In this document: in pieces, positions 788 to 20,659 of the stretch
How positions within the stretch are numbered: position 1 is the first letter of the stretch
Layout: each line of letters begins with the position of its first letter
IMG/VR virus record: IMGVR_UViG_3300019487_000029
Span: 1,621-65,620 of that record
Strand: one strand, 5' to 3'
From: a virus
Lineage: Duplodnaviria; Caudoviricetes
Length of the DNA: 64,000 nucleotides
Notes under the pieces: generated by a model
The model's input: only the letters and a program-made list of their open reading frames with translations
The model's database searches: none
What the model was told of the DNA's origin: nothing
Made by a program: the position numbers and the translations under genes

Positions 788-1072
788 TACGTGATACAGA
801 TACAAATCTTTTTTCATGGGCGGCGATACGTATTCATATATGATACAACTTATTTGGTTTGCTATTCGGCCTTATCTGATACCGATAGGGATACCTTTGC
901 TTATTACTTTGGGCATGGTGTATTGGTATTTCTATGATGAGATATAGACGAAGCTGGGTGAGAAGCAATTGGAGGATATAGAGGAGCCTGACGATGATGA
1001 AGATGAAGATAATATTCTTAATCCATAAATACATACATACGTATTTACGTGTTTCACCGAATAGGTATTTAT

Positions 1073-1591
1073 TTATATTTTACCCATTGTTTTGGATGAT
1101 TCGTATAGAAGTTTAAGTGTATCATAAAAAGTATTTGCTGAGTGGTATCCTTTGAGAGCATTAACTCCCCAACAACAGAATACAGTGTTTTCTTTTGTAT
1201 AGCCGAGGGTGGAGGAGTAACGGTCGAGGGAAATAAGAAGTGGGTCACGGTCTAAATGATGAATGGTACGAAGTGCCATAGGAATGCCTGTATAGAAACA
1301 TTTCCCTTCTTGATTTTTATAAATGTCACGTAAATTTTGAATTGATAGAGAATATTCAATTCTTTTTGTTTTAGCATTAGAGCGAGATGATTGTGATATT
1401 TTGTAAAAAGTAGCTTCTAGCATGTCTTTTGGGTTAGTGCTATAAAAGAGTTTTTCTTGCCATTTTTTTGTATTGTGAGATGTACATGATTTACATTTGG
1501 TAGCATATCTGTTTTTGTGTTGATTGTAATAAAATTCAGTTAATGATTTTTCTTGACTGCACCGAGGGCATAGTTTAGTTTCAATATTCAT
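1073..1591 (-). CDS. HNH homing endonuclease with N-terminal Zn finger
   Basis: CPRC..CKSC; GKCFYTG; SLDR...GYTKENTVFCCWGVN. Confidence 0.85.
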   Translation of the reverse strand: MNIETKLCPRCSQEKSLTEFYYNQHKNRYATKCKSCTSHNTKKWQEKLFYSTNPKDMLEATFYKISQSSRSNAKTKRIEYSLSIQNLRDIYKNQEGKCFYTGIPMALRTIHHLDRDPLLISLDRYSSTLGYTKENTVFCCWGVNALKGYHSANTFYDTLKLLYESSKTMGKI

Positions 1592-1708
1592 AACAATAGA
1601 TATTATGAAATAAGTGTAAAAATACTTATTTTAGATATTTCTTGAAAAATGGTCATTTTCACCGAATAGATATTTTTATATTCTTTTTCTCACCGATTCG
1701 GAGCAAGT

Positions 1709-1730
1709 GTAATTTAAGTCCTGTAATTAG
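1709..1730 (+). repeat. 22-bp palindrome, site 1
   Basis: GTAATTTAAG-TC-CTGTAATTAG. Confidence 0.9.
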
Positions 1731-1919
1731 TCCCAAAAGCCAATTTTCGCAAAATACCTATATCCCATATGGAGCATATTGGTATGTGCTATTGGGGATA
1801 TAGGTATGGAGGATGGAAATAAAATCAGGGCAGGGGAGGCACATAGTTATTATAACATACTTAAAAACAGATGTCAAATAAAAAGTGAAGAAATATATTT
1901 CTTCACATATTTATGGGAT

Positions 1920-2372
1920 ATGAAGAATTGCAAGTATTGTGGAAATCCGTGTAAGAGTATGATAACTTGTCCTTGTGGGAAATGGGTAGAAGAGCGTGGA
2001 AAGTATCAGAGGTCTAAGGCGAAGCGGTTATATTGGAAACAGCCATTTCGGAGGATGCTCAAGGTAATGGTTACGAATAATCGCCAGAGGTCGCTTAGAG
2101 ACCTTCCATTTGCCATTAGAGCGGTTGACTTGGCATTATTGGCCAAGAGGCAGAAAATGCTTTGTGCATTGACCGGGAGGCGTCTGACGAACGAGAACAT
2201 ATCTCCTGACCATATCATACCGATTTCCAAGGGCGGGACACATGACATAGGGAATATCCGTTTAGTGGACAGGGATGCCAACATTGCTCGAGCATCATTA
2301 TCTGATGAGGATTTCTTGAGGTTATGTAGGGATGTTGTAAAAACTCTTGACAAAGGGGATGGGGGTTGGTAA
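1920..2372 (+). CDS. HNH endonuclease
   Basis: CALTG; PDHIIPISKGGTHDIGNIRLV; TATTTAT just upstream of ATG. Confidence 0.85.
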   Translation: MKNCKYCGNPCKSMITCPCGKWVEERGKYQRSKAKRLYWKQPFRRMLKVMVTNNRQRSLRDLPFAIRAVDLALLAKRQKMLCALTGRRLTNENISPDHIIPISKGGTHDIGNIRLVDRDANIARASLSDEDFLRLCRDVVKTLDKGDGGW

Positions 2373-2453
2373 AGTGAAGATGGAATAAGTCATAATAAAA
2401 ACATTGTTGATAAAATAACGGAAGTTGCTTCCAAAGTTGCCGATGCTCAAAAA

Positions 2454-2762
2454 ATGATGGGAGATTATGACCATGTATTTGAGATGGTATGTGATCCCAA
2501 ATCCATACCTGTAGAGCCTTTGGTTTTCTTTACTAGCGATTCTCATATAGGACAATCAGTTGACCATATTCAACCTATAAAAACGGTTGTACGGCATCCG
2601 GGGGTTAAGGTGGAGTATCCTTGTGTATTTCAGTCGAAGCCTAATGGGGTGATGTACAAGTTGAAGATTCCCAAGTCATTTCCGCCAGCGATAGAGTTGC
2701 CGAGTTCGGCGTTTGGGAAGATGGTGATGAAAAAGATTCAGGACTTAAAAAAAGTCTCTTGA
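2454..2762 (+). CDS. Hypothetical protein
   Basis: ORF downstream of TTGACA promoter at about 2347. Confidence 0.5.
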   Translation: MMGDYDHVFEMVCDPKSIPVEPLVFFTSDSHIGQSVDHIQPIKTVVRHPGVKVEYPCVFQSKPNGVMYKLKIPKSFPPAIELPSSAFGKMVMKKIQDLKKVS

Positions 2763-2965
2763 CACTTTCTATAGAGTAGGTAAGGTAAGATGTGGATATA
2801 TGGATACGTTTCATGTAACAATGAAAAGCCCGAAGGGGATTGAGAAGTTGTTTACTGGTGTGGCTGATTCTTTTGAAGAGATTCGGAAGGATGCCGAGCG
2901 GGAGTATCCACGTCATGTGATTACGGAGATTGAGAATGCTACCACGGGTGAGACAAAGGAATTTC

Positions 2966-3772
2966 GTGAATAAATCATTTTTGAAGTGGGCGGGAGGCAA
3001 GAGTTTGCTATTCCCTCAGATTATGGCTTTGGTGCCGCCCGATGAACGCAAGGGGGCATTCATTGAGCCTTTTGTGGGGTCGGGTGTGGTAGCCTTGAAT
3101 GCACCATTTGAGCGAATCGTCATCAATGACACCAATGAGGGATTGATGCTTCTGTGGACTGAACTCAAATGGGGTCAAGAGGACTTCATCGAAGAGTGCC
3201 GTGAGTTATTCACCGGCGAGTTCAATAATCAGGTTTCTTTCCAAACCATTCGGGCATCCTTCAACAAGCAGCCATGTGGCAAGTACTTTTTATACCTCAA
3301 CCGTCATTGTTTCAATGGGTTATGTCGCTTTAACCTGAAGGGTGAATTCAATGTCCCCTTCGGCAAGTATGACAAGCCCTATTTCCCGGAGAAGGAACTG
3401 AGGGAAGCTCTTTTGGTCTTGAAGAAGACCAGAATGTACCAATTGGACTTTGGGGATATGATGAACATGGCGGAAGAGGGCGACGTGGTTTACTGTGACC
3501 CGCCTTACTTGCCGCTGTCGGACACTTCCAACTTCACGGCTTATTCCAAGGGTGGGTTCTCTATGGATGATCAAGTGAGATTGGTTGACCGTGCTTTGCG
3601 GTTGCGTGACCGTGGGGCAACTGTGATTATTTCCAACAATGACACGCCTTTGGCACGGAATCTGTATAAAAAGGCTGATCACATTCATTTTCTTCAGGTC
3701 GCCAAGCGGATTTCCTGCAAGGCTGATGGACGGAAGAAGTCGGGGGAATTGATGGCGGTGTACCGTCCTTGA
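2966..3772 (+). CDS. dam: DNA adenine methyltransferase (Dam/D12 family)
   Basis: KWAGGK, EPFVGSG, FNGLCRFN..GEFNVPFG, DPPY. Confidence 0.92.
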   Translation: MNKSFLKWAGGKSLLFPQIMALVPPDERKGAFIEPFVGSGVVALNAPFERIVINDTNEGLMLLWTELKWGQEDFIEECRELFTGEFNNQVSFQTIRASFNKQPCGKYFLYLNRHCFNGLCRFNLKGEFNVPFGKYDKPYFPEKELREALLVLKKTRMYQLDFGDMMNMAEEGDVVYCDPPYLPLSDTSNFTAYSKGGFSMDDQVRLVDRALRLRDRGATVIISNNDTPLARNLYKKADHIHFLQVAKRISCKADGRKKSGELMAVYRP

Positions 3773-3996
3773 AGCTTATGTTGTGCCAAGATGATAGTTG
3801 TGACATGAGTCACTGCACGGGTTGTGGTGCTCACATGATGGGTGCCCATTTACCGTTGGGTTCTATTTGCGACAGTTGCAAGGAATCCATTGGGAGTGAG
3901 ATGGACCGCTATTCAGAGGCGGCATCTGTCATTATGCAGTATGAAAAAGGTTTAGAAAAAGCCTTGACTACTCGTTCGGGTAGTGTAAGGTAAGAC

Positions 3997-4230
3997 ATGA
4001 ACGCAACAACTGAACCGCCTCGTCAAACGAATTTCAAATGCCCGATCTGCGATCACTTGATGGTCGCCCGTGATGGGCAAGTCTTGGACCCGAAGGATGG
4101 AGTCACTGTCTGGTGTGGGAATACGCATGGCTCCGCACCCGGTCAATGTTCAGCACAAGAAGTTGCTGGGCACGGCAACAATGAAAAAGCTGCTTACGAA
4201 ATCATTACTCAGAAATACAAGAAAGGCTGA
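3997..4230 (+). CDS. Small Zn-finger protein (Lar-like layout)
   Basis: CPIC...VWC...C..EKAA; own sigma70 promoter at about 3964. Confidence 0.5.
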   Translation: MNATTEPPRQTNFKCPICDHLMVARDGQVLDPKDGVTVWCGNTHGSAPGQCSAQEVAGHGNNEKAAYEIITQKYKKG

Positions 4231-4468
4231 ACTATGACCCCACTCCCTGTCAATCCAAACGTCCTTATCCTCGTTGATAAGGAAGGCAAAGTCCTTGAAG
4301 CTGCAACCAATGTGGCTCCCGACTTGAAGGTTACTGTCACGTCGGATTTGGCTGTTTTCAATGAGGAAGCCAAAGGCAAGACTTTCCGGCAGACCACACG
4401 GTCCAACTGATTCACCCCGCAGCGACCTCCACACGCAAGCCTCGGACGCAAGTCCGAGGCTTGTTGCT

Positions 4469-4963
4469 TTATATCTTGTGATTGGATTTAGCTCCCTCAT
4501 AGAAGAGTTTTAGTGCATTAAACATTGTAGTTTCGTCATGGATATTTTTTAACCAATTCATTCCTAAACAGCAAAGCACAATGTTGGTTTCATCATATCC
4601 AATTTTATAATCTATTCGATCAATTGACATAAGTAATGGGTCTTTAGAATAACTTGCTAATTTCATAGGAATTCCTGTGTAATAACATTTTCCGGCTTGA
4701 GATTCGTATATTTTTCTCAGTTCGGTCATTCCTATACTTTTAGTGCAGTTATTTCTATTTCGACAAGACACATGAAGTATTTTTGCCAATCGTGTTAAAC
4801 CTCCCGTCACAGATGTTTCATCCTTCAATGCATTTTTGGTCCATCTTTTAGATTCTAATTTGGAACATTTTTTACACCAAGAATATAATGTCCCTCGTCT
4901 TTTATTAACGTAAAATTCTGTAGAGTCTTTGTTGGTTTTACATTTGGCACAAATTTTCATCAA
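4469..4963 (-). CDS. HNH homing endonuclease
   Basis: CAKC..CKKC; GKCYYTG; SIDRID..GY..NIVLCC; paralog of 1073-1591. Confidence 0.85.
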   Translation of the reverse strand: MMKICAKCKTNKDSTEFYVNKRRGTLYSWCKKCSKLESKRWTKNALKDETSVTGGLTRLAKILHVSCRNRNNCTKSIGMTELRKIYESQAGKCYYTGIPMKLASYSKDPLLMSIDRIDYKIGYDETNIVLCCLGMNWLKNIHDETTMFNALKLFYEGAKSNHKI

Positions 4964-5079
4964 AGTATAAGTACATTCAGGATACTATAATGTACTCATA
5001 TAAAAACAAATAATTTTTGGTTTTTTAGATTTTCAAGTTTGTAATCTCTAATTCGATTATGATCATTTCGATTCGATTA

Positions 5080-5101
5080 CTAAATCTAGTCCTGTAATTA
5101 G
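5080..5101 (+). repeat. 22-bp palindrome, site 2
   Basis: CTAAATCTAG-TC-CTGTAATTAG; arms extend (TCGATTAC/GTAATTCGA). Confidence 0.9.
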
Positions 5102-5152
5102 TAATTCGAGATCAGGGAGAAATTCGAAATAAGTATTAAAAAGGGATGCGTA

Positions 5153-5392
5153 CAAAAAGAAGCGGCGGTTGAAGCAACCGAGTTTCGTATTTCTACGTCT
5201 CGGCTGGTATTCAACCGCCGTTATCTCTGTCGTCTGATTCCGTTGCCCGTTTTGGTATCGGTATGCTTTATACGGATTCTTCAGCAGCTACCGGGTCTGC
5301 TAAGGCTTCTCTTACAGAGATTCGTTAAATCTGGCTCACGTTTGCTTGCTGGTTTCCCAACGTCGCTACTTGGGTTTTGCCAAACTTAACTT
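5153..5392 (-). ncRNA. Putative structured ncRNA, about 240 nt
   Basis: Own promoter TTGACA(5421-26)-N16-TAAGGT and a terminator (5154-5220); no ORF of 60 aa or more. Confidence 0.6.
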
Positions 5393-5558
5393 GCGACAAC
5401 CTTACCACTTTCATGGCAGATGTCAAATTATTTTTTCAAAAACTTTGACAGCATCGGATTCAATATGGCAGTTGATCCGACAGACTGGAGATTTATTTTA
5501 CTGATATTTTCTACCTTGTCAAATTAAATCCCTCTTTTTATTTCAAAGAGGGATATTT

Positions 5559-5930
5559 ATGGGCATGAAATGTTTGTATTGTCAAGAAGAGTTTTCGCCT
5601 CGTCGAAGAGATCAAATTTATTGTAGAAAGCGATGTGGTAGTAGAGCAAGTGCATTACGAACCGGATCAAAAGAAAGAGCCGACAGACGATGTAGTTGGA
5701 AAAAGCAAGGAATTATTTTTACTTTTGAAGAATATCTAAAAATGATGGCGGTTCAAAAGCAAAAATGTAAAATTTGTCAAGGTCAATTTTCATCTTTAGA
5801 AGTTGATCATGATCATGTGTCGGGCAAAGTCCGAGGATTGCTCTGTGGAAATTGTAATCGGGGAATTGGGCATTTCAAAGATAATACCAAATCTTTGCAA
5901 CGAGCAATTTATTATCTAAAAAAAGAATGA
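5559..5930 (+). CDS. Endonuclease VII-like HNH protein
   Basis: CKIC..VDHDHVSGKVRGLLCGNCNRGIG. Confidence 0.9.
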   Translation: MGMKCLYCQEEFSPRRRDQIYCRKRCGSRASALRTGSKERADRRCSWKKQGIIFTFEEYLKMMAVQKQKCKICQGQFSSLEVDHDHVSGKVRGLLCGNCNRGIGHFKDNTKSLQRAIYYLKKE

Positions 5931-5973
5931 AGGCGTCCTCAACGGACGCCTTCATTCCGGGTTGGCCGGTGAC

Positions 5974-6399
5974 TTAGGCAGTCACGGGAGCCGCTTCAGT
6001 GGCGGGAGCAGCTTCGGGAGCCTGGGCGATCACGGGAGCAGCGGGAGCAAGCAGAGCCGCTTTCGTCGCTTCATAGTCCGCCGTGGGCTTCGCCGGGGCG
6101 ATGGAAACGCTGACCTTGGACTTGATGGCAGTCTTCAGAGCGTTCATCTTGGACCGGCGGATGTACACGAACGTCTTGCGACCCAAGCCCTTCTTGGAAT
6201 TCGACTCACGGGTTTCGTCCTTCACGAGAACGATTTCCGACTTGCCTTTGCGGGCGAAATCCCGCTTGAGGAACTTGCGAAGCGTCAACGGTGTGACGTG
6301 CTCGTTCGCCTCGACCAGATCGGCGAAGGTGAACTTTCGGCTGGGGATGCTGATCTCAGCCATTGGACGACCGGGACCACGTTGCGATTTGTTTTTCAT
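5974..6399 (-). CDS. Basic, probable winged-HTH DNA-binding protein with Ala/Pro tail
   Basis: FTFADL..VTPLTLRKFL...GRKTFVY; two upstream TTGACA promoters. Confidence 0.6.
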   Translation of the reverse strand: MKNKSQRGPGRPMAEISIPSRKFTFADLVEANEHVTPLTLRKFLKRDFARKGKSEIVLVKDETRESNSKKGLGRKTFVYIRRSKMNALKTAIKSKVSVSIAPAKPTADYEATKAALLAPAAPVIAQAPEAAPATEAAPVTA

Positions 6400-6596
6400 G
6401 CTGTTTGTTGTGTTTGTTGTTTACTGACGTTACGAGATGAATATATCCGATCCCGTATGATTGTCAAATTCTTTTTGCACTTTTTTATCAGTTGCGAATT
6501 TAGACTTAATAATCACGGCGGGACTATATCTATCTACGCAAAAATGTCAACAAGTATTTTCAAAATCTTTTGAAGAGGAGACCACATCCGGCCAAG

Positions 6597-8014: not shown

Positions 8015-8492
8015 TTCGTCTTTCCTCCCTTACAAATTTGATTTTGTTAGTACTCAAAGCATCTTTCATAAAAATAGATGCTGTAGCATATTGTATGCCA
8101 TTTTTTTCAGCCAGTTCGATGGTACTGAATTCACCGACTGGAACAACAACTGCCTTGGCTGGCTTGGCTTCCTCTTCCGCCGCACCGGCAGCTTCCTTGG
8201 TCAAGTCTTCATACGCCTTCATCGCACGAGCACGGTTATTATAGGACCATGCGATGAATCCGAACTGACTTGTCCCCGGATACTTTTCTTGATCATCCTC
8301 GGTGACAGTCTGGAAAACCTTGGTGCCCTTGGGGAGAATCTTGATGCGAAAGACTTCATAGTCCTTTGGAACCCCATTACGGGACCGCTCATAGATGGCG
8401 GTGGTTTCGCTTCGGGCAAGCTGAGTGTATGTGAGAGGGTCTGTTGAGAATCCACCCTCACCTGATACGAAAGTCTTTTCGAGTTTAATCAT
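7974..8492 (-). CDS. Hypothetical protein with C-terminal winged-HTH-like domain
   Basis: FSTIELAEKNGIQYATA...GKPTKLY. Confidence 0.55.
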   Translation of the reverse strand: MIKLEKTFVSGEGGFSTDPLTYTQLARSETTAIYERSRNGVPKDYEVFRIKILPKGTKVFQTVTEDDQEKYPGTSQFGFIAWSYNNRARAMKAYEDLTKEAAGAAEEEAKPAKAVVVPVGEFSTIELAEKNGIQYATASIFMKDALSTNKIKFVREERRNVKGKPTKLYIKV

Positions 8493-9012
8493 GTGTCCAT
8501 TCACCGAGGCACTTCAGAGTCTTCGGGTTGAAGTATGCAATCAGTTTACGATTACCGTGGCATTTGTCAAATACTACTTTCACATTGATTGGAGCACTGA
8601 CAGACCCCCATGCTTTCACCGAAGGATTGCGGCGATGTTCATTGAGCACGAGATCGATAAACCCCGCAACTTTAGTCTTGAGTTCCCGCACAAGGAACAT
8701 CCGTATTTTCCCCGTGCGATCCTTTACGAGATAGTACTCAGCCTTGCACCGCATATCCCTACCTGTAATTCCCCGATCAATGTCCTTCATGCACTCAAAG
8801 AGGACATCATCTCCACTCTCACGGAACTTGACCTGTACAGCAACCGTTGTGCCATCCCATTCCATCCACCCATCAATTTTGTCCTTGATGTCTTCCTCAT
8901 CTGTGGGTTCAGCAATCTTGATGCCAGCCTTCCGCAACACATCAAGTATTTGCTTCTCACCAAGTTTTCCTTGGATGACTCTGGCGTCGTAATCTTCACC
9001 ATTTAGCATCAT
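8485..9012 (-). CDS. PD-(D/E)XK-like nuclease
   Basis: GEKQI..DKIDGW..VQVKFR. Confidence 0.55.
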   Translation of the reverse strand: MMLNGEDYDARVIQGKLGEKQILDVLRKAGIKIAEPTDEEDIKDKIDGWMEWDGTTVAVQVKFRESGDDVLFECMKDIDRGITGRDMRCKAEYYLVKDRTGKIRMFLVRELKTKVAGFIDLVLNEHRRNPSVKAWGSVSAPINVKVVFDKCHGNRKLIAYFNPKTLKCLGEWTHD

Positions 9013-10360: not shown

Positions 10361-11062
10361 ATGCAATGTGGGATTTACAAAATAATCAATAGATTAAATG
10401 GAAATTATTATATTGGCTCGACCAATAATTTCTCAGGTAGATGTGGTAGGAAATATACCCATCGCTACAATCTTACATTAGGAATCCATCCAAACTGTCA
10501 TCTACAAAATGCGTGGAACAAATATGGAGAATCCAATTTTGATTTTGTTTTTATAGAATCAATTGAAGAAGAAAACCTTCTTATTGTCGAGCAACAGTAT
10601 CTTCACATTGCTCAACAGGAGAGTCGTAAATGCTATAATAAGAAGTTTATTGCCGGTGGTGGAGCGTATGGAGAAGTCAGCGAAGCTACTCGCCAGAAGC
10701 AAAGCAAACGTAAACAAGGTCAAAAGAACCCTCGATACAAATCACGCAACTACATGCTTAGACATAAAATGAGCGGGCAACTTTTTAATGGCACACTTTA
10801 TGATTTCGTTCAACTGACAGGTTCATGTAGAAAAGATGTCAACGAACTATTACTATGGGGAATGGCGGATAGTGTGAAGGGATGGATTCCATTGGATGAG
10901 GATGTTAAAGAGAAACGAAGAATAAATAAGAAGCCTCGTAAAAATACTTATGTATTCACCGAAGAGCACAGAAAAAACCTTCGAGAAAATTGGAAGTCTC
11001 GGAAAGTTACTTCTTATTCTCCGGGTGACACTTACACGAACAATCTCGCTTACACCATTTGA
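10361..11062 (+). CDS. GIY-YIG homing endonuclease with NUMOD3-like motifs
   Basis: GIYKIIN..YYIGST; HLQNAWNKYG; SEATRQKQS. Confidence 0.9.
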   Translation: MQCGIYKIINRLNGNYYIGSTNNFSGRCGRKYTHRYNLTLGIHPNCHLQNAWNKYGESNFDFVFIESIEEENLLIVEQQYLHIAQQESRKCYNKKFIAGGGAYGEVSEATRQKQSKRKQGQKNPRYKSRNYMLRHKMSGQLFNGTLYDFVQLTGSCRKDVNELLLWGMADSVKGWIPLDEDVKEKRRINKKPRKNTYVFTEEHRKNLRENWKSRKVTSYSPGDTYTNNLAYTI

Positions 11063-12101: not shown

Positions 12102-12297
12102 AGCTTTTTATATTGTACGGATTTCACCGAATGGTGTCAAGCTTAAAAGAACGTCCTTTCACCGAATTCCTTCAGTTTTTCTTTGACCGCCTCAATGCCG
12201 ACCTCTTCAATCAATTGAAGCAAGAGTTGTGCCTTCTTGGGTCGTCCTCACCCATCAATCGTTAGCACTCGCTCAAGCTCTTTGACCAAGGTGTCCA

Positions 12298-13117: not shown

Positions 13118-13373
13118 ATTCCCTTGAATTGATTTGACCATCAATAGTCAGAAGTCCCTGCTCCTTTGCCAGTTGCGTTGCCGCAAGGTAAGAGTAGGTG
13201 GTGCGATCACCGAATGAATTGCGTACGGGACCGAGGATCGCAAGCTTGTTCGTGTCCACTGGCTTCTTGTCCGTGACGCCCTTTCGCACGACGTTGAACA
13301 TGGTGCGGAAGGCATAAGGGAAGCTCGTGCAGTCAACTTTCTGCACACCGTTTTGAAAAATCCAATTGCTCAT
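13104..13373 (-). CDS. Hypothetical protein
   Basis: ORF with upstream promoter. Confidence 0.6.
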   Translation of the reverse strand: MSNWIFQNGVQKVDCTSFPYAFRTMFNVVRKGVTDKKPVDTNKLAILGPVRNSFGDRTTYSYLAATQLAKEQGLLTIDGQINSREFKKR

Positions 13374-13858
13374 GGAGGATACATTAGCAGAGTTGTCTCA
13401 CCGAGTCAACCATGATTTTTTCGCAAGTTGCTCCAAGAGCCGATTGTTGGCTTCCCATTGTTCAATGGTGATGCCCGTGATGATTTCAATGACGATTTCT
13501 TTCATGGTTTTCATAGTTGTTTCACCGAAGAACTTCTTTGGCCGGGGCATCCACGAATGTAAGGGAATCTCTGCCCTCGTCGAACCCTTCCGTTTTGATC
13601 AGACGGGCATGAACCCGCTCAATAGTGATCGGACGATTGGATTGGAAGACTGTTACGGTTGGTCCGCAGTTGTCAAAGTGAATAATGACGGTCTGCTTGA
13701 ACTTAAATCGTTTTCGTTTCATAATCCCCACGTTACATCTTTATAGAAACTCTGTCAAATGTTTTTTTCTTGTTGACAAAAGAATATGGAAGTGTAAATT
13801 GATTTCGTAACGAGAAGACACTTGACATTCTCCGAAGAACACGTAAAGTAACAACACT

Positions 13859-14551: not shown

Positions 14552-14691
14552 ATTTGGCTGTCAAGTCGTTGTAGCCTAAAGGCTCCGCTTCAGTCATAAG
14601 ACGCCCTCGCTCGACCGTTTCGAGCGGGGGTTTCTGCTTTTCACCGATCATCTTTCCCAATCACCGAACTCCCATCCATTGCCCGGCCTAA

Positions 14692-14713
14692 GTAATTGTA
14701 GTGCTGTAATTAG
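14692..14713 (+). repeat. 22-bp palindrome, site 6
   Basis: GTAATTGTAG-TG-CTGTAATTAG. Confidence 0.9.
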
Positions 14714-14793
14714 TAATGGCCGGGAGGTCCAGACATCTCGGCTCTTCAGAAAATTTCCTCTTGACTTTTTTCTGCCTAACATATAGTTCAGCA

Positions 14794-15039: not shown

Positions 15040-15459
15040 ATGAAATACACCTACCGCTACGACATTCAAGGCAATGGAGATAGCCATTACCTTCACATGT
15101 ATTTTGATCGCCCACTCGCCGCCTCGTCTTTCTATCGTCACAACGATGATGTCAGTCCGAAGGATCGGGAACTCAGCGACGCCATTGCTCACACTCCCAA
15201 TGTCCTCTGCAACGACCAGTTCGCAGGTACGGGTGAGTTGAGTGGGGCTTCTGCGGAACTCATTCACGTTGATGGCACGGCGTTGACGGTCAAAATCGTT
15301 CCTCACCGAAACGTACCCGAAATTGCCAAACAGATTGTCAAGAAGGTGCAGCGTCGTTTGGCTCCCAAAGAATCTCGCCGCCGAGTCCTCAAAGCGACGT
15401 TGGACGCTTATGTGAAGCGTCTCAACGAACGCACTTACGGCAAACCCCGTAATACGTAA
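15040..15459 (+). CDS. Hypothetical protein
   Basis: ORF followed by terminator. Confidence 0.65.
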   Translation: MKYTYRYDIQGNGDSHYLHMYFDRPLAASSFYRHNDDVSPKDRELSDAIAHTPNVLCNDQFAGTGELSGASAELIHVDGTALTVKIVPHRNVPEIAKQIVKKVQRRLAPKESRRRVLKATLDAYVKRLNERTYGKPRNT

Positions 15460-15568
15460 GCCTCTCCGTCAGGAGTTAAGGCAAGTCGTATCCACGAAAG
15501 CCCGGAGCAATCCGGGCTTTTTGCTTTTCACCGATCATCACCGAACTCGTGGTCCTCTTCCGGGCAGG

Positions 15569-15590
15569 GGAATTATAGTCCTGTAATTAG
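15569..15590 (+). repeat. 22-bp palindrome, site 7
   Basis: GGAATTATAG-TC-CTGTAATTAG. Confidence 0.9.
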
Positions 15591-15672
15591 TCTCCTGAAA
15601 AGCCGGGTGATGTCGAGGTCTCGAAGTGAAATAGTTGTTGACAAAAGTATAATAAAGACTAGAGTGAAATAC

Positions 15673-16632
15673 ATGAGTCATGCTATTTTAAGAATGTTTC
15701 AAGGGGCAATCGCCTTTATCGGACCTGAAACGGAGGTTCGTCGGGCAGACTTACTTGTCAACAAGTGGGATGCCATTCACACCAAGGTACAAACCATCTT
15801 TGATGATGGGCTGACCTATTGCAATCACTGCATGAGTCTGTACATCCAACACGATGCTTCGTGCTGGCGTGATATGGAAGACTTGTTTCGTCGCACCAAA
15901 CTTCAAGGCAAGACTGCGAAGACTATTCGGAAGAAAGCCGATTACTTCACCAAGCACTTTTGGAAAGTCCTTCATCGTCACCCCGATCTCGCCAAGATCG
16001 AGCGAGAAAACGATTTCAAGAATGGCACGCCTTGGGATGAACAGTTTCGGGTTGACTCTTCGCTCTGCATCTGGTGGATGAATTACTACTTCGCCACACA
16101 CGATGCGGAACTCAACGTCCCTCCCTTTCCTCTCTACACGGTGGAGGAAGATCATGCAAAAATCCTCGCTAATGCCAAGAAACTTGAACGGAGGATGAAA
16201 GGGAATCGCAAGGAACCCAAGTTCACCATCAAGGCAAGTGAGGTAAAGTTGGAAGTTCAAGCTCGTGATGACTGTTGGATCAAGTTTGAATGGGATGACC
16301 TTTCCAATGCGTGTGAATTGATGGGCTTGTTTGAAACGAGCGGGTGGACTGCACGGGATGGAACTCATTACGACCATACCAAAGCTCCTCGGAAGAAACT
16401 CAACAAGATGTTTCCTCATGCCGAGATTGAGTGCATGGATACGCCCTCAAATCTTTACGGGGACACGAACAATTGGTTTTACGTGTACTTCCATTGGAAG
16501 CCCGAACACTTCTCGTGGGCACAAGTCCGTAAAGCTGAACGGGCTATGAAAGAACTCGTGGTGCCCCGCCTCGGCACGTTTCGTCCGGCAGACAAGCCCA
16601 AGAAATATCAAGTGGTGACGTTGAAATTCTAA
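15673..16632 (+). CDS. Hypothetical protein
   Basis: Long ORF after TTGACA(15638)-N16-TAGAGT. Confidence 0.75.
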   Translation: MSHAILRMFQGAIAFIGPETEVRRADLLVNKWDAIHTKVQTIFDDGLTYCNHCMSLYIQHDASCWRDMEDLFRRTKLQGKTAKTIRKKADYFTKHFWKVLHRHPDLAKIERENDFKNGTPWDEQFRVDSSLCIWWMNYYFATHDAELNVPPFPLYTVEEDHAKILANAKKLERRMKGNRKEPKFTIKASEVKLEVQARDDCWIKFEWDDLSNACELMGLFETSGWTARDGTHYDHTKAPRKKLNKMFPHAEIECMDTPSNLYGDTNNWFYVYFHWKPEHFSWAQVRKAERAMKELVVPRLGTFRPADKPKKYQVVTLKF

Positions 16633-16667
16633 TTGACAAAAGGATACAAAAGGCATACTGTCACTCC

Positions 16668-16967
16668 ATGAACGCAGCCAAAAAAGCAAAGATGGATAAA
16701 GAGCTTGAGGTAGTGGCTTTGGAAGCCGTGTTGAAGCACAAGAAGTCCAAGCTCTACGCCAAAGTTAATCACGAGGACAATTTCTCCTTGGTCATGGCTC
16801 CGGTGGCTCGTGATGCCATTATGGAGGAACTCGGCTTGCTGGATACCGCCGATGACGTGGACTGGATCAATGAAATGTGCCGCAAGCCGTATGGCAAGTC
16901 CGTTGACTATCTCGATGCTTTCGCCCGCAATGTCAGTCGCACTGCATATCAACAACTCAGAGCATGA
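16668..16967 (+). CDS. Hypothetical protein
   Basis: After TTGACA at 16633. Confidence 0.65.
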   Translation: MNAAKKAKMDKELEVVALEAVLKHKKSKLYAKVNHEDNFSLVMAPVARDAIMEELGLLDTADDVDWINEMCRKPYGKSVDYLDAFARNVSRTAYQQLRA

Positions 16968-17653
16968 AACTTTCCTTCAAACAACTTGAAAAGCGGTTCA
17001 CCCCAATGCCAACGTATCGGGTGAACATCCCGTGGGATCACCTTGAGGAGAATTTGCAGCGGTACATTGACCGTGGTTCGAACGGCACTGCTGCACTTGA
17101 TTTGGAACCCGACTTCCAACGTGAGCACGTATGGACTCCTGAGCAGCAAGTCAAGTATGTGGAGTACATCCTTTCGGGCGGCATGAGCGGAAGGGAAATC
17201 TACTTCAATTGCGTGGGGTGGATGAAGGATTGGAAGGGACCATTCGTGATTGTGGATGGGAAGCAGCGGCTTCATGCGGCTCGGCTCTTCATGGATAACA
17301 AACTTCAAGTGTTTGGAAAAAAGGTTGAAGTTAAACCTTGCATGTTAGCCCCGATGGGAGGAGAAGAAATCCAAGATGGGTACTTCCGCAAGGACATTGA
17401 GGGTCGCCTCTCACTCAACGCCCAATTCATCTTTGCGGTGAACGACCTGAAGACTCGTGCTGAAGTCCTCAAATGGTATTTGGAGATGAACACGGGTGGA
17501 ACTCCTCACACGGCAACGGAAATCGCACGGGTCAAGAATCTTCTCACGAGTGAAGCTCCTCAAATGCCTCACTGCCCCATGTGCAAAGGCGAAGTGGAAT
17601 TAGATGGAAGTGGTGGATACAACTGCTTCTTCTGCGGTCACTCCTTCAAGTAA
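16964..17653 (+). CDS. DUF262 (ParB/Srx-like, GmrSD N-terminal) protein with C-terminal Zn ribbon
   Basis: PDFQREHVW, IVDGKQRL; CPMC..CFFC. Confidence 0.8.
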   Translation: MKLSFKQLEKRFTPMPTYRVNIPWDHLEENLQRYIDRGSNGTAALDLEPDFQREHVWTPEQQVKYVEYILSGGMSGREIYFNCVGWMKDWKGPFVIVDGKQRLHAARLFMDNKLQVFGKKVEVKPCMLAPMGGEEIQDGYFRKDIEGRLSLNAQFIFAVNDLKTRAEVLKWYLEMNTGGTPHTATEIARVKNLLTSEAPQMPHCPMCKGEVELDGSGGYNCFFCGHSFK

Positions 17654-17746
17654 AATCACCGAATTCACCGATCAGAAGCCCGGATTTCTCCGGGCTTTTT
17701 TGTTTTTCACCGACCAGAAAGCCCGGACATTTGATGTCCGGCTGGA

Positions 17747-17768
17747 GGAATTACAGGACTAGAATTAG
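17747..17768 (-). repeat. 22-bp palindrome, site 8 (inverted)
   Basis: Reverse complement CTAATTCTAG-TC-CTGTAATTCC. Confidence 0.9.
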
Positions 17769-17793
17769 TATCGAGATGGCCGGCTCTTCGAAA

Positions 17794-18372
17794 TCACAAG
17801 AACATGTTGGGCAACTTGCCAAGGAAGTTCTCCAGACTTTGGAATGGACCGAGTGGCTGACCCTTTTTCTCTTTCTTATCAACCTTCGGCTCTCCCGAAG
17901 AGAGCTTGTAAGTCACTACACCATCTTGAATTACGAAGAGTGCTCGGAACGACCATCCTGTTATGTGGGTATTCTTCTTGAACCCCATTGCATCCATAGG
18001 AAGAGAACCAAACCTCTTCTTGTTGGTGGACTCAATGATCAGTTCGTATCCCTTGCAACAGTCCTTGGCTTTCAAGCACTCCAAGATGTCGCTCGGCAAA
18101 TCTTCTTTGGTAATGGATTGGCTTGGGAAGAACCTCTGAAGCACATCAAGGTATGTGAGAACTTTGATGTTGGGACTATGAAGTGGATCGAACCCCATCA
18201 CCGAAAGGTTACTGACAGTGGTCACATGAGGAATGACTTGCTCGAACGACGCCAACGCCTCCTCATAACTCCTCCATTTGTTGTCGGGGGAGACTCGTTC
18301 AGTTGGGAGGAGAGACTGACAGCCGGTGGTCAGAAGGACCAAGAGCATGAGGAGCGATAAAAGCGTCTTCAT
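17794..18372 (-). CDS. Putative lipoprotein
   Basis: Signal peptide with lipobox-like LTTGC. Confidence 0.75.
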   Translation of the reverse strand: MKTLLSLLMLLVLLTTGCQSLLPTERVSPDNKWRSYEEALASFEQVIPHVTTVSNLSVMGFDPLHSPNIKVLTYLDVLQRFFPSQSITKEDLPSDILECLKAKDCCKGYELIIESTNKKRFGSLPMDAMGFKKNTHITGWSFRALFVIQDGVVTYKLSSGEPKVDKKEKKGQPLGPFQSLENFLGKLPNMFL

Positions 18373-18443
18373 AGAATGGATTACCCCTAATAAATATAGT
18401 GAAATCAACCGTTTCACCGATCACCCGGCCTCCTGAAGAGCGA

Positions 18444-18465
18444 GTTTTTATAGTCCTGTAAATAC
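18444..18465 (+). repeat. 22-bp palindrome, site 9
   Basis: GTTTTTATAG-TC-CTGTAAATAC. Confidence 0.8.
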
Positions 18466-18657
18466 TAGCCGGGCGTGCTCTTCGGATGTCGGTCTCGAAC
18501 AGCCAGTTGTGAATGAATCTTTTAGGGGACTTCCCTAATACCTTGGGTAGTAGTGAGTACGAATAAAATAACTTTTGACTTTGTGAACACGAAAGGATAC
18601 AGTAATGACGTAACACTGAAACAGTGAACCGACAATAACAACCAAGAAACAAATCGA

Positions 18658-19242
18658 ATGAAATACACTCAAAAGTTCGCATGGCTCGCCGTGCTCGCCC
18701 TCACCCTCCTCGCCCTCCCCGCTTTCGCTGACAACGACAAGCATGACAAGTGTCACAAGAACCATCGTTGCGACAATCGTTGCCACGGCAACCATCACAA
18801 CAACCACGTCTGCAATGCTCAATGCCACTCGTGCTGCACCGTGACCTTCACCGTGACCAACACCGTCGTTCAGTTCCGCACGAACACGATTCACGTTCCC
18901 GTGTACGAAACGAACATCGTGACGGAAGTCGTGACCAACATCGTTGAGGCGTCTTTGGACGATGCGTCCGTCAACTACACGCTGCTTGAACGTCATCGCT
19001 ACGGCTTTTATGTGTGGAATGGCAAGCGTTGGGCGGCTAATGGTGCCATCATCAGTGCTTCCAATCAAGTCGTTCGCATCAGCGTTCCCGGTTATTTGGT
19101 CCGCCCCACTCCGCTCATTTGGCAGCTTGTGGACGTGACTGCGGGATTCCCTCGTACGGCAGTGCCCGCTGAGGAACCCGTTGCTCTACCGAACCTTTCC
19201 TTCGTGGCGATGAACGGTCGCCTCTATCGGGTGCTCCGCTGA
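18658..19242 (+). CDS. Secreted protein with His/Cys-rich segment and TN repeats
   Basis: Signal peptide ...LPAFA; HDKCHKNHRC...; VTNTVV/ETNIVT. Confidence 0.7.
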   Translation: MKYTQKFAWLAVLALTLLALPAFADNDKHDKCHKNHRCDNRCHGNHHNNHVCNAQCHSCCTVTFTVTNTVVQFRTNTIHVPVYETNIVTEVVTNIVEASLDDASVNYTLLERHRYGFYVWNGKRWAANGAIISASNQVVRISVPGYLVRPTPLIWQLVDVTAGFPRTAVPAEEPVALPNLSFVAMNGRLYRVLR

Positions 19243-19338
19243 TTCACCGATTCCCCTCCCCGCCCCCCCGCTCGCAAGAGTCGGGGGTTTTTTGTTTTTA
19301 TCCCTTGACATTATTATACAAAAGAGTAGATTGCTCAC

Positions 19339-19593
19339 ATGGCACAAGTAAAAATCAATTTCCCTAGTGACGCAGCGGCAAAGGAGTTTTGCACTTGGCT
19401 CTGTGAGCAAGGCGAGCAAGACTATTGGGGTTGGATGGAAATCTGCGATCCATCCAAGGAGAAGACGGTTGTCTTCAAGTATCACGCTCCATTGGACATG
19501 AGCTTCCCGCAAGACGACAAACGCAGATACAAAAACGCCACGTTCTGCCCTAACTTTGAAATCGGCACTAACCTTTACAACTTCACTGAATGA
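19339..19593 (+). CDS. Hypothetical protein
   Basis: After TTGACA at about 19305. Confidence 0.65.
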   Translation: MAQVKINFPSDAAAKEFCTWLCEQGEQDYWGWMEICDPSKEKTVVFKYHAPLDMSFPQDDKRRYKNATFCPNFEIGTNLYNFTE

Positions 19594-19784
19594 AAACCGC
19601 CCTTGCACTAACGGCTCAACGATTTGAATCTGCGAGTCATCGCACTGAAGAATACCTTTCATGGCATCGCAATTTCAAGCGAGCCTTCACCAAGTTCCTC
19701 ACCGAGAAAGGAGCCAAGGACATCTTCCGGGCAAGTAATTATAGTCCTGTAATTCCCTTGGCCGGACATCAGCCCGGTCAATGA
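19590..19784 (+). CDS. Hypothetical protein, possibly truncated at palindrome site 10
   Basis: ORF reads through the palindrome and its GC-rich flanks. Confidence 0.5.
   Translation: MKTALALTAQRFESASHRTEEYLSWHRNFKRAFTKFLTEKGAKDIFRASNYSPVIPLAGHQPGQ
19735..19756 (+). repeat. 22-bp palindrome, site 10
   Basis: GTAATTATAG-TC-CTGTAATTCC. Confidence 0.9.
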
Positions 19785-19817
19785 GGAACTCCTCCCCGAA
19801 CCAAGCGGATGGGACTT

Positions 19818-20408
19818 TTATCCCATAAAGCGATTCCCTTTTAGAATGTTTTCAATCTTCAGTTTCGGTTGAAGGTTTTTTAGTGCCCAACATTCTTTGA
19901 ATTGAGGGTCATCCGTGTCATCATATTTGAACCAAGACTTAGGAATTACGTGGTCAACCTGCCAATGACTACCATAATTTTCCCATGACATATCTCCGGA
20001 GAAGTGACTTTCAAGATGAGATGCTAATTCACCGATTGTATATCCAACCAAAGCTTCCCATTTCCTAAATCCCTTCATGGCTCTTAAAGCATGATACATA
20101 TTACCACGTAGATTATTGCTCAAGCGGTGCATCGGGTCTTCCATTGCCTTCCGATCCCACTTACGCTTCCATAAACGACGCTTCAATTTCATTTCGGGCG
20201 TATTCAAATATGCCTTAAACTTCATAGCGTTCTTTCGCTTCCATTGCTTACTTCTTTCGGCAATGTCTTTTTTTCTTATGGGATACTTACTTTTGGAGTA
20301 ATCACTACAACATGCTCTGCACCATACATGCAGACCATCTTTACCCCTCCCCCTGTAGAAATCAGTAGTCAATTTATCTAGTTGACACTTATTACATCGT
20401 CGATTCAT
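19818..20408 (-). CDS. HNH endonuclease
   Basis: CNKC..CRAC; MSWENYG.HWQVDHVIP..NLQP. Confidence 0.85.
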   Translation of the reverse strand: MNRRCNKCQLDKLTTDFYRGRGKDGLHVWCRACCSDYSKSKYPIRKKDIAERSKQWKRKNAMKFKAYLNTPEMKLKRRLWKRKWDRKAMEDPMHRLSNNLRGNMYHALRAMKGFRKWEALVGYTIGELASHLESHFSGDMSWENYGSHWQVDHVIPKSWFKYDDTDDPQFKECWALKNLQPKLKIENILKGNRFMG

Positions 20409-20443
20409 TCACTATAAATATACTCGTCTTCACCGAAACGAGA

Positions 20444-20465
20444 GTAATTACAGGACTAGAATTAG
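20444..20465 (-). repeat. 22-bp palindrome, site 11 (inverted)
   Basis: Reverse complement CTAATTCTAG-TC-CTGTAATTAC. Confidence 0.9.
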
Positions 20466-20659
20466 TCGATGGGCTTACTCTTCGAAGGAACAAGTTAATC
20501 ATGGGTTGTTTCACCGAACCTAATTATAGAAACTCCCTCGGCATCCTAGCATCAAGTATGCCAAGCTAACCAGAAATCTACTCTAGGGGTTTCCCTTAAT
20601 TTCAATCTTTTTATACTTTTCCGCTTGCGTGTAATTACAGGCAATGCGATAGTATCGGC

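What the first reader, a model, noticed from the sequence alone, without database searches (positions are those of the whole stretch)
1054..20517. Strand-polarised heptamer TCACCGA: about 30 copies on +, about 1 on -, confined to the same region
Seen (manual count): + strand copies at 1054, 1659, 1690, 8131, 8501, 8616, 10956, 11677, 12124, 12159, 13207, 13398, 13522, 14265, 14352, 14641, 14661, 15303, 15528, 15538, 17656, 17665, 17707, 18198, 18414, 19244, 19699, 20029, 20430 and 20511. I found one reverse copy (about 8299). Chance expectation is about 1-2 per strand in 21 kb, and I saw only about 4 on + in the other 43 kb. Copies occur in genes of both orientations and cluster just left of several palindromes, getting denser toward 20.5 kb, so this is a DNA-level directional signal rather than a codon effect. 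Inference: a KOPS/Chi-like polar cue for a translocase or helicase (genome entry, packaging or segregation) working with the palindromes.
Basis: partly seen in the sequence, partly recalled or inferred. Interest (0 to 1): 0.85.

Follow-up and report, generated by a model that had tools for sequence, protein, structure and literature searches.

The report
One-way seven-letter word in phage early region
A group of large uncultured phages writes the exact word TCACCGA dozens of times on one DNA strand across one block of early genes, mostly next to transcription stop and start signals, which marks a real, selected one-directional control signal whose reader is still unknown.

Summary
About 2 copies are expected in that region by a Markov-2 model, and TCACCGA is both the most enriched and the most strand-skewed 7-mer there.

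The window is a fragment (CheckV 19%) of a large, distantly T4-like phage. TCACCGA is the top 7-mer in four related contigs as well. The five contigs together carry 129 copies on one strand and 22 on the other. In 19 metagenome loci there are 55 copies upstream and 2 downstream of a conserved winged-helix gene that ends the array.

- The word is exact: one-mismatch variants are at background.
- 70% of copies are intergenic.
- It flanks co-oriented terminators only.
- It is helically phased.
- It is absent from + promoter cores but present in - promoter cores.
- It is about 3-5 times denser in - genes than in + genes.

My best reading (0.4) is a stoperator-like one-way punctuation signal for rightward early transcription. 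A Chi- or KOPS-type translocase cue fits worse but is not excluded. The scan has noted analogous polar heptamers, with other words, in other phages.

The parts
1054..20517 (+). The word array: 30 exact TCACCGA copies on the + strand within a promoter-rich block of small early-type genes
1054..1696 (+). Left-boundary cluster: 3 copies (1054, 1659, 1690) in the most AT-rich part of the window. Two 30-nt direct repeats that include the word (1052-1081, 1657-1686) flank an inserted HNH/EndoVII-like gene (1073-1591, - strand). Relatives carry 3-4 iteron-like units here.
   Evidence: (family D20)
14603..14714 (+). Junction module: terminator hairpin 14603-14631, words at 14641 and 14661, 25-nt spacer, quasi-palindrome 14693-14714
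15496..15591 (+). Junction module: terminator 15496-15521, tandem words at 15528 and 15538 (10 nt apart), 25-nt spacer, quasi-palindrome 15570-15591. A sigma70-like leaderless promoter follows at 15638.
17656..17770 (+). Junction module: tandem words at 17656 and 17665 right after a stop codon, terminator 17674-17699, word at 17707, second hairpin 17723-17741, reversed quasi-palindrome 17749-17770
19244..19299 (+). Word at 19244 just after a stop codon and before a terminator T-run (19281-19299). A sigma70-like promoter follows at 19305.
   Evidence: (D8)
12124..12165 (+). Two words in a - strand leaderless promoter: 12124 lies in the spacer between -35 (12140) and -10, and 12159 lies about 19 nt upstream of -35. 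The same arrangement occurs at the homologous place in G003.
13398..13404 (+). Word overlapping the -35/spacer of the - strand promoter at 13409, which drives the conserved gene 13104-13373
8131..8622 (+). Three words (8131, 8501, 8616) inside conserved - strand genes 7974-8504 and 8485-9012
13207..13213 (+). Word inside the conserved - strand gene 13104-13373. It is spelt by F-G-D, where the four aligned relatives have H, M or R in place of F and so cannot spell it.
20029..20035 (+). Word inside the - strand EndoVII/HNH-like gene 19818-20408
10956..10962 (+). Word inside the + strand GIY-YIG endonuclease gene 10361-11062. This is one of the few sense-strand genic copies; the others are at 14265, 14352, 15303, 18198 and 19699.
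20430..20517 (+). The last two words (20430, 20511), 230 and 149 nt upstream of the boundary gene. Two or three words sit at similar distances in relatives.
20660..21169 (+). Boundary gene (169 aa, no Pfam or PHROG family; the model shows weak winged-helix matches). The array stops here in the window and in most relatives. It is transcribed from a leaderless promoter with a palindrome half-site in the spacer.
8299..8305 (-). The only reverse-orientation copy in the region

Best explanation
TCACCGA (weak flanks: T before, A after) is a cis-acting, orientation-dependent punctuation word for rightward transcription of the early-gene domain. This domain is rich in sigma70-like promoters and belongs to a large, distantly T4-like phage.

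Proposed mechanism (inferred): a conserved sequence-specific reader recognises the word in one orientation only. Alternatively, a factor reads UCACCGA on the nascent rightward RNA.
- just after, and sometimes just before, each rightward terminator at cassette junctions;
- inside leftward genes and leftward promoters embedded in the domain.

The word is kept out of rightward promoter cores and is rare in rightward coding sequence.

Shown: the word's exactness, polarity, domain limits, conservation and placement statistics. Inferred: that it acts on transcription, and what reads it.
For: (1) Real and selected. The count is 31 against 2.0 expected, with 31 on + and 1 on -. TCACCGA is the top Markov-2 7-mer in each of five non-redundant contigs of 36-45% GC (z 12.7-21.4), with 129 copies on one strand and 22 on the other (no shared 31-mers). 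Within the five word-bearing domains the split is 115 to 11.

(2) Confined to the early domain. In 19 metagenome loci there are 55 + copies in 34.9 kb upstream of the boundary gene and 2 in 35.9 kb downstream (p 5e-15). Sigma70-like promoters are enriched in window 1-20,000 (52 found, 31.7 expected in shuffles) but not in 20,000-29,000 (14 found, 13.8 expected).

(3) Tied to co-oriented terminators. Of 32 + strand terminators, 14 have a word starting 7-40 nt after the stem, and 7 words lie 31-45 nt before a stem end. None of 9 - strand terminators has a word within 60 nt (Fisher p 0.017).

(4) Placement follows the sense of transcription.
- Density is 2.81/kb in intergenic DNA, 1.39/kb in - genes and 0.29/kb in + genes.
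- In conservation-validated coding segments, - genes hold 14 words in 13.5 kb and + genes 11 in 31.9 kb (p 0.0055).
- In - genes, 24 of 40 peptide contexts that could spell the word on the map + strand do so. The same contexts in + genes do so in 2 of 34 cases (p 6e-7).
- In - genes, 10 of 14 words lie in the 3' 40%, where a rightward polymerase would enter.
- The word is in the core of 0 of 46 + leaderless promoters and 5 of 23 - ones (p 0.003).

(5) DNA-level reading is favoured. There are tandem copies 8-12 nt apart (14 of 66 close spacings), phasing at 10.5 nt (R 0.31), and phased distances to the palindrome cores (11, 14-15, 24-25, 35-37, 45-47 nt).

(6) Precedent. L5-type repressors bind more than twenty asymmetric sites in promoters and short intergenic spaces. 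Site orientation follows the direction of transcription, and reversing a site abolishes repression (PMC9283540, Introduction).
Against: - No reader has been identified. The boundary winged-helix protein's putative recognition helix co-varies with the phage-specific palindromes, not with the invariant word. A conserved 89-aa protein gave only weak ERH-like fold matches.
- No RNA data exist.
- A roadblock placed 7-20 nt after a terminator hairpin would stall polymerase before the terminator is fully transcribed, so the pairing with terminators is not obviously mechanistic.
- No words follow the boundary gene, although it converges on a - gene block.
- Every contig has a 2.5-6.4 kb word-free gap in the domain, in four of five just after the left cluster. 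In the window this gap contains a + terminator converging on a - gene.
- + genes still carry the word 11 to 1 in the map + orientation, so selection is not purely against the sense strand.
- Complete absence of one-mismatch variants is unusual for a regulatory protein site.
- Many junction modules are paralogous or orthologous, so the counts are not fully independent. The pooled-domain gene calls are from my own crude caller.
Confidence: 0.4

Rival explanations
1. Upstream activator or architectural site. A phage or host protein binds TCACCGA in phased arrays upstream of the palindrome-containing promoters of rightward cassettes and helps or gates their transcription. This would be a functional analogue of the Mot box in the promoter-middle stem-loops (PmSLs) of T4-like phages.
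For: - The words lie after terminators and upstream of the quasi-palindromes at phased distances (35-37 nt in 13 cases, plus 11, 14-15, 24-25 and 45-47 nt).
- Tandem copies are about one helical turn apart.
- The spacer length (25 nt) is kept between paralogous modules while the spacer sequence differs.
- Two or three words sit 130-370 nt upstream of the boundary gene in 13 of 15 loci that have upstream sequence.
- T4-like phages are known to combine a stem-loop with a Mot box and a -10 element (PMC4122927, passage).
Against: - There is no -10-like TAnnnT at Mot-like spacing: 8 of 79 intergenic words against 14% background, 0 of 11 in + genes and 1 of 25 in - genes. There is no fixed partner at any offset.
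- Only 3 of 46 + sigma70-like promoters have a word within 120 nt.
- It does not explain the roughly 12-15-fold enrichment inside - genes, nor the words inside - promoter spacers in the 'wrong' orientation.
- About a third of palindrome cores have no word within 120 nt upstream.
Confidence: 0.2
2. Chi-like or other tracking-enzyme cue. A helicase-nuclease or translocase moving along the DNA recognises the word in one orientation. The dense array protects or processes the DNA next to an end or entry point near the right boundary.
For: - The word is exact, with no degenerate copies.
- It shows extreme polarity and over-representation in genic and non-genic DNA.
- It is strong enough to shape codons and even residues in - genes.
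- The array ends sharply at the same conserved gene in all relatives.
- Chi-rich phages are known: LLS has 20 of 23 Chi sites in the active orientation, clustered near one end, and MD8 has 32 to 0 (PMC12315714, section 6).
Against: - Placement follows transcription signals, which a tracking nuclease should ignore. This covers terminator association (14/32 against 0/9), promoter-core asymmetry (0/46 against 5/23), and the 3-5-fold difference between - and + genes after allowing for coding opportunity.
- Helical phasing is present.
- All contigs run through the boundary, and no end has been mapped.
- No opposite-polarity array lies on the other side.
- The host is unknown, so the key test could not be run.
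Confidence: 0.15
3. Strand-specific nick site. A phage HNH-type nickase cuts one strand at each word, giving T5-like single-strand interruptions in the early domain. Downstream roles could be clamp loading, recombination or DNA entry.
For: - The word contains ACCGA, and its complement contains TCGGT. These match the published site of phage HNH nickase N.phiGamma, YCG^GT / AC^CGR (PMC4027164 abstract in the listing; PMC3592412 passages). Relatives cut CSG^GT, HSSG^GT and YG^GTY.
- An enzyme-type reader would explain the exact-match specificity.
- The region carries six HNH/EndoVII-like genes and one GIY-YIG gene.
- One-strand nicks in phage T5 are a precedent (recalled, not checked here).
Against: - There is no evidence of nicking. 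The only run that holds this DNA is kept as contigs.
- ACCG is a 4-base core, so the match could be chance.
- Similarity of the window's HNH proteins to N.phiGamma was not tested, and only one has a weak Pfam HNH hit.
- This reading does not by itself explain the helical phasing or the transcription-linked placement.
Confidence: 0.1
4. Recombination core of mobile regulatory cassettes. The word is the conserved crossover point of PeSL-like terminator/promoter junctions, or an integron-like core site. It is kept in one orientation because cassettes are exchanged in register.
For: - The words sit at cassette junctions beside terminators.
- 30-nt direct repeats containing the word flank an inserted endonuclease gene (D20).
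- Relative to syntenic L140, the window has extra cassettes bounded by word-bearing junctions.
- PeSLs are proposed to mediate such shuffling in T4-like phages (PMC4122927, abstract and part 1).
Against: - 35 of 115 domain copies are inside genes.
- The word is invariant while the flanking junction sequence is not. Seven bases is too short for homologous exchange, and no site-specific recombinase was seen in the fragments.
- + sigma70-like promoters, the PeSL promoter type, mostly lack the word (3 of 46 within 120 nt).
Confidence: 0.1

Closest known systems
Stoperators of cluster A mycobacteriophages (L5 gp71-type repressor sites)
   Same: Both are asymmetric sites present in dozens of copies, lying in promoters and short intergenic spaces, with a striking one-way orientation. 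Function depends on orientation relative to transcription (PMC9283540, Introduction).
   Different: Stoperators are 13-mers with some degeneracy. They are specific to immunity groups and belong to temperate phages. Here the site is an exact 7-mer, invariant across relatives with 35-77% protein identity. It is limited to one 16-22 kb domain of a large T4-like, apparently lytic-style genome. It keeps its orientation inside oppositely transcribed genes and promoters. No gp71-like reader was identified; I ran no homology search for one.
Chi-rich phages (E. coli phage LLS, P. aeruginosa phage MD8)
   Same: Both show an exact short word, many copies, nearly all in one orientation, and clustering in one part of the genome (PMC12315714, abstract and section 6).
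   Different: Chi is the host's word, and it clusters at a mapped DNA end. Here the host and the ends are unknown. The placement tracks terminators, promoters and gene sense, and neighbouring copies are helically phased.
PeSL / PmSL composite terminator-promoter motifs of T4-like phages
   Same: Both are repeated intergenic modules made of a stem-loop followed by regulatory boxes, in hyperplastic regions full of small ORFs. PmSLs carry an asymmetric Mot box (PMC4122927). The phage here is distantly T4-like.
   Different: The word has no -10 partner at Mot-like spacing. It is rare near sigma70-type promoters. It also occurs before terminators, in genes and in opposite-strand promoters. It is paired with phage-specific quasi-palindromes.
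Phage HNH nickase sites (N.phiGamma, AC^CGR) and one-strand nicks of phage T5
   Same: Both are strand-specific exact short sites read by small phage HNH enzymes. The word contains ACCGA. T5 nicks lie on one strand only (recalled, not checked).
   Different: No nicking is shown here. Known HNH nickases of that family sit beside terminase genes and act at cos/packaging (PMC3592412 abstract). Their sites are not reported as locally over-represented arrays.

Membership tests
Chi site (RecBCD/AddAB-type) | Exact short oligomer, over-represented and strand-polar | tested here: met
Chi site (RecBCD/AddAB-type) | Same word over-represented and replication-skewed in the host chromosome | not testable with these tools
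   The host is unknown.
Chi site (RecBCD/AddAB-type) | Active orientation faces a double-strand end where the enzyme enters | not testable with these tools
   The contigs are linear fragments (17-23% complete; 6% for G004) with unmapped termini. The only run is kept as contigs.
Chi site (RecBCD/AddAB-type) | Placement indifferent to transcription signals (my expectation for a tracking nuclease, not a formal criterion) | tested here: not met
KOPS/SRS (FtsK/SpoIIIE guidance) | Two arrays of opposite polarity converging on a target site | tested here: not met
   Only background - strand copies lie right of the boundary in the window and relatives.
Stoperator system (L5 gp71-type) | Asymmetric multi-copy site in promoters and short intergenic spaces | tested here: met
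Stoperator system (L5 gp71-type) | Site orientation follows the direction of local transcription | tested here: inconclusive
   The word is co-oriented with the majority (rightward) transcription and with the boundary gene in all contigs. It does not flip in leftward genes or promoters.
Stoperator system (L5 gp71-type) | Two-domain HTH monomeric repressor that binds the site | not tested
   No candidate was found among the proteins scanned.
MotA box / T4 middle promoter (PmSL) | Box followed 11-13 bp later by a sigma70 -10 (TAnnnT) | tested here: not met
   (8/79, 0/11 and 1/25, at or below background)
PeSL (promoter-early stem-loop) | Stem-loop immediately followed by a sigma70-type early promoter, repeated in hyperplastic regions | tested here: inconclusive
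   Stem-loops followed by the word are common. However, only 3 of 46 + sigma70-like promoters have a word within 120 nt, so the word belongs to a separate palindrome-type module.
HNH nickase site (N.phiGamma type) | Contains the AC^CGR / YCG^GT core | tested here: met
   TCACCGA contains ACCGA. The site is as given.
HNH nickase site (N.phiGamma type) | DNA is nicked at the site by a cognate HNH enzyme | not testable with these tools
   No raw reads or virion DNA are available. HNH-like genes are present, but their kinship to N.phiGamma was not tested.

The most novel reading that the evidence does not exclude
A clade of large T4-like phages uses an exact 7-nt word as a domain-wide, one-way DNA signal read by an enzyme-like reader and not by an ordinary transcription factor. 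For example, a strand-specific HNH nickase could cut at the ACCG core. The resulting one-strand marks or bound complexes would then impose direction on the whole early region, by stopping rightward polymerases or by loading tracking proteins in one orientation. With the other polar heptamers this scan has noted in unrelated phage early arms, this would point to a general, undescribed class of 'early-region direction words' in phages.
Probability: 0.15. Interest if true: 0.85.

Novelty: new variant of a known kind. Interest (0 to 1): 0.68.

Why it matters
Polar words such as Chi, KOPS and stoperators are among the few DNA signals that give a genome a direction. Here an exact heptamer is conserved across a diverse, uncultured clade of large phages from several habitats. 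It is confined to the host-polymerase-transcribed early domain, and its placement statistics point to transcription and not to recombination.

If it is a one-way stop signal, it shows how a lytic giant phage insulates dozens of small early cassettes and protects embedded opposite-strand genes. It would extend the stoperator principle beyond temperate actinophages.

The word is also a practical marker. It delimits the early domain and its orientation in fragmentary metagenomic contigs of this clade.

Tried and rejected
**Codon effect.** Rejected: frames are mixed, genes run in both orientations, and 70% of copies are intergenic.

**Alternative genetic code as a cause of the short ORFs.** No clear gain from any reassignment.

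**Sigma-type -35 element or MotA box.** No fixed -10 partner.

**T4 late promoter link (TATAAATA).** Seen next to words only in G003 and once each in G000 and G002. Not general.

**Dam/GATC overlap.** Only 8 of 115 words are followed by TC. The methyltransferase at 2936-3772 is D12/Dam-like.

**Tandem-pattern scan of viral contigs.** It returned more than 118 single chance hits, mostly in high-GC contigs, and found no new relatives.

**Finding relatives and cultured phages.**
- Megablast of the region against cultured phages: no match.
- tblastn of the boundary protein against cultured phages: no match.
- The search for related loci with the 319-aa protein found nothing.
- The genome-contig scan found no relative.

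**Reader candidates.**
- The boundary protein gives weak PadR/LmrR/RTP-type winged-helix matches (E 0.03-0.1). Its helix co-varies with palindrome type, so it more likely reads the palindromes.
- The conserved 89-aa protein (13104-13373): no Pfam family with a significant match (best E 0.021 in one of five members) and weak ERH-like fold matches. Uninformative.
- Conserved proteins right of the boundary: one phosphoesterase, the rest unknown.

**The two giant proteins (1042 and 1274 aa).** No PDB, Atlas or RNA-polymerase-motif signal. PDB sequence search with two HNH-like proteins gave nothing useful.

**Literature.** A whole-word search for TCACCGA or TCGGTGA found 0 papers.

**Expression.** No RNA holder is listed. 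One DNA run holds the stretch and may be its source. Read laying was not used because that run is kept as contigs and cannot show ends or nicks. Complex prediction was not used because no protein pair is claimed.

**Supplementary files.** Supplementary site lists for stoperators and Chi-rich phages could refine the comparison.

Full report
**1.

The remaining 43 kb holds 5 + and 4 - copies. The window is bases 1621-65620 of a 65,620-bp virus record, which has one more + copy further left.

In the first 22.2 kb of the contig the word occurs 31 times against 2.0 expected under a Markov-2 model. It ranks first among all 7-mers for both enrichment and strand asymmetry (31 to 1). The motif is compact. 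Only the base before it (T in 19 of 30) and the base after it (A in 18 of 30) carry weak information, and no partner sits at a fixed distance.

**2. What the DNA is**

The record is a linear fragment with CheckV completeness 19%. It carries 22 tRNA genes and a D12/Dam-like methyltransferase. It also has one GIY-YIG and six HNH/EndoVII-like endonuclease genes within 20 kb, and many small ORFs.

A 543-aa protein has distant relatives (21-29% identity) in T4-like giant phages of Vibrio and Aeromonas and in other very large phages. I therefore treat it as a fragment of a large, distantly T4-like phage.

The word-bearing region is rich in sigma70-like promoters of the form TTGACA-N16/17-TAnnnT. These are followed 4-10 nt later by ATG, so the mRNAs are leaderless. 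The next 9 kb has no such excess. The region looks like the host-polymerase-transcribed early domain.

**3. Conservation**

One relative was found with the 543-aa protein. Three more viral contigs were found with the family of the 169-aa gene at 20660-21169.

Counts on the strand of that gene against the other strand are 26:5, 15:4, 27:6 and 25:2. In an unbiased scan TCACCGA is the top Markov-2 7-mer in every one of the five contigs, which range from 35.6 to 45.3% GC. The contigs share no long exact words and almost no nucleotide similarity in this region.

In 19 further metagenome loci that hold the same gene, 13 of the 15 with at least 290 nt of upstream sequence carry the word upstream. In total there are 55 + copies in 34.9 kb upstream and 2 in 35.9 kb downstream, with none inside the gene. 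The array therefore always points the same way as this gene and ends 130-370 nt before it.

At its other end the array starts with an AT-rich cluster of 2-4 word-bearing, iteron-like units. It is followed in four of the five contigs by a word-free gap of 4.8-6.4 kb; G002's largest gap (2.5 kb) lies mid-domain.

**4. The word is exact**

Pooled over the five domains there are 115 exact + copies, 11 - copies and 6.1 expected. All 21 one-mismatch variants are at background.

**5. Placement**

By gene class, using my own gene calls:
- 80 of 115 copies are intergenic (2.81/kb).
- 24 are in - genes (1.39/kb).
- 11 are in + genes (0.29/kb).

Restricting to coding segments validated by cross-contig conservation gives 14 words in 13.5 kb of - genes and 11 in 31.9 kb of + genes. 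Reverse-orientation words number 2 and 1. The leftward genes are real: five of them keep their orientation in relatives.

A codon-opportunity test controls for amino-acid content. In - genes, 24 of 40 peptide contexts that could spell the word on the map + strand do so. The same contexts in + genes do so in 2 of 34 cases, and about 6% do so outside the domain (Fisher p 6e-7). One word inside a conserved - gene is spelt through a residue that the four aligned relatives lack, which shows turnover and not inheritance.

Relative to transcription signals:
- 14 of 32 + strand terminators have a word 7-40 nt after the stem.
- 7 words lie 31-45 nt before a stem end.
- None of 9 - strand terminators has a word within 60 nt.
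- The word is in the core of 0 of 46 + leaderless promoters but of 5 of 23 - promoters. Five more copies lie at -50 to -64 of - promoters.

The recurring junction module in all contigs runs in this order:
1. stop codon;
2. word;
3. about 12 nt;
4. hairpin;
5. T-run;
6. one to three words, 9-11 nt apart;
7. about 25 nt;
8. a phage-specific quasi-palindrome.

Close neighbour spacings are phased at about 10.5 nt (R 0.31, n 66). Distances to the palindrome cores cluster at 11, 14-15, 24-25, 35-37 and 45-47 nt.

**6. Interpretation**

Three features point to a sequence-specific reader that senses direction: exactness, polarity irrespective of local gene orientation, and conservation across divergent genomes. 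The placement statistics tie that direction to rightward transcription:
- The word is common where a rightward polymerase should stop or should not be (after and before rightward terminators, inside leftward genes and promoters).
- It is rare where a rightward polymerase must work (rightward promoter cores and coding sequence).

The closest described system is the stoperator network of cluster A mycobacteriophages. There, a monomeric repressor binds more than twenty asymmetric sites in promoters and intergenic spaces and blocks elongation only in one orientation (PMC9283540, Introduction).

Helical phasing favours a DNA-bound reader. A factor that reads the nascent RNA would explain the polarity equally well.

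I put this reading at 0.4 for four reasons:
- No reader was found.
- No RNA data exist.
- Words are missing after the boundary gene and in the word-free gap.
- + genes still show an 11 to 1 orientation bias.

**7. Rivals**

- **Upstream-activator reading (0.2).** It fits the phased geometry to the palindromes and has a T4-like precedent in Mot-box stem-loops (PMC4122927). It fails the -10 spacing test and does not explain the genic and leftward-promoter copies.
- **Chi-like reading (0.15).** It fits exactness and polarity and has phage precedents (PMC12315714). It does not predict the transcription-linked placement or the phasing. Its key tests (host chromosome, genome ends) could not be run.
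- **Nick-site reading (0.1).** It rests on the ACCGA core shared with the published N.phiGamma site and on the abundance of HNH genes. It is untested.
- **Recombination-core reading (0.1).** It fits the junction position and an endonuclease gene flanked by word-bearing repeats. It does not fit the genic copies.

KOPS-type convergence is not met, because there is no opposite array.

**8. Candidate readers examined**

The boundary protein models confidently (pLDDT 85) and gives only weak winged-helix matches. Its putative recognition helix falls into three classes that match the three palindrome types of the five contigs. It is therefore a better candidate for the palindromes than for the invariant word.

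A widely conserved 89-aa leftward gene has the word in or near its promoter in three contigs. It gave an uninformative fold.

**9. Limits**

- The pooled-domain gene calls come from a simple codon-bias caller.
- Modules within and between contigs are related, so the tests overstate independence.
- All contigs are fragments.

Statements about T5 nicks, T4 MotA, KOPS and RecBCD polarity that carry no call number are recalled from general knowledge.

Noticed in passing
window 1-21200, both strands (e.g. 9070-9109, 15638-15675, 19305-19341; - strand 9044, 11196, 12140): Sigma70-like promoters TTGACA-N16/17-TAnnnT are followed 4-10 nt later by ATG, so most genes of the domain appear to be leaderless. 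This suggests a host that translates leaderless mRNA efficiently.
   Followed up: partly
window 1710, 5081, 6598, 10233, 12608, 14693, 15570, 17749, 18441, 19736, 20446, 20633: A roughly 22-bp quasi-palindrome (TAATTATAGTCCTGTAATTAGT type) occurs in both orientations. Relatives have their own versions. The putative recognition helix of the boundary winged-helix protein falls into three classes that match the three palindrome types, which suggests that this protein reads them.
   Followed up: partly
window 46993-61685 (tRNA region): CCAATTT occurs 36 times on + and 5 on - in the contig. About 30 copies directly follow tRNA or tRNA-like 3' ends (CCA plus ATTT). That is more than the 22 tRNAs ARAGORN calls, so extra tRNA-like elements share a common 3' processing context.
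   Followed up: partly
window 1052-1686: An HNH/EndoVII-like gene (1073-1591, - strand) sits between two 30-nt direct repeats (83% identical) that each contain the word. It looks like an endonuclease cassette inserted into the left-boundary repeat cluster.
   Followed up: partly
window 10162-10200: A terminator almost identical to those at 15496 and 17674 is followed by TTTTCCCATGATC where the others have TTTTCACCGATC. This looks like a decayed copy of the word at a junction.
   Followed up: no
window 21177-21310: Directly after the boundary gene lies a perfect hairpin (GGGGATAGGGAAATCCCCTATCCC) and a C-rich, repeat-like stretch with no clear ORF. It could be a structured RNA or another boundary element.
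   Followed up: no
G004 (L134/L135), whole 21-kb contig: GATC is almost absent (0.25/kb in the domain), against 2.0-2.9/kb in the other four contigs. The window encodes a Dam-like methyltransferase.
   Followed up: no
L001 18314-18715 (G001): ARAGORN calls a 402-nt tmRNA-like gene with a 29-residue tag on the - strand of the relative's contig. It was not checked and may be a false call.
   Followed up: no
window 1700-8100; the same relative position in G001, G003 and G004 (G002's largest gap lies mid-domain): A word-free gap of 4.8-6.4 kb follows the left-boundary cluster in four of five contigs (2.5 kb, mid-domain, in G002), although it contains promoters, terminators and genes of both orientations. 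No reading I considered explains it.
   Followed up: no
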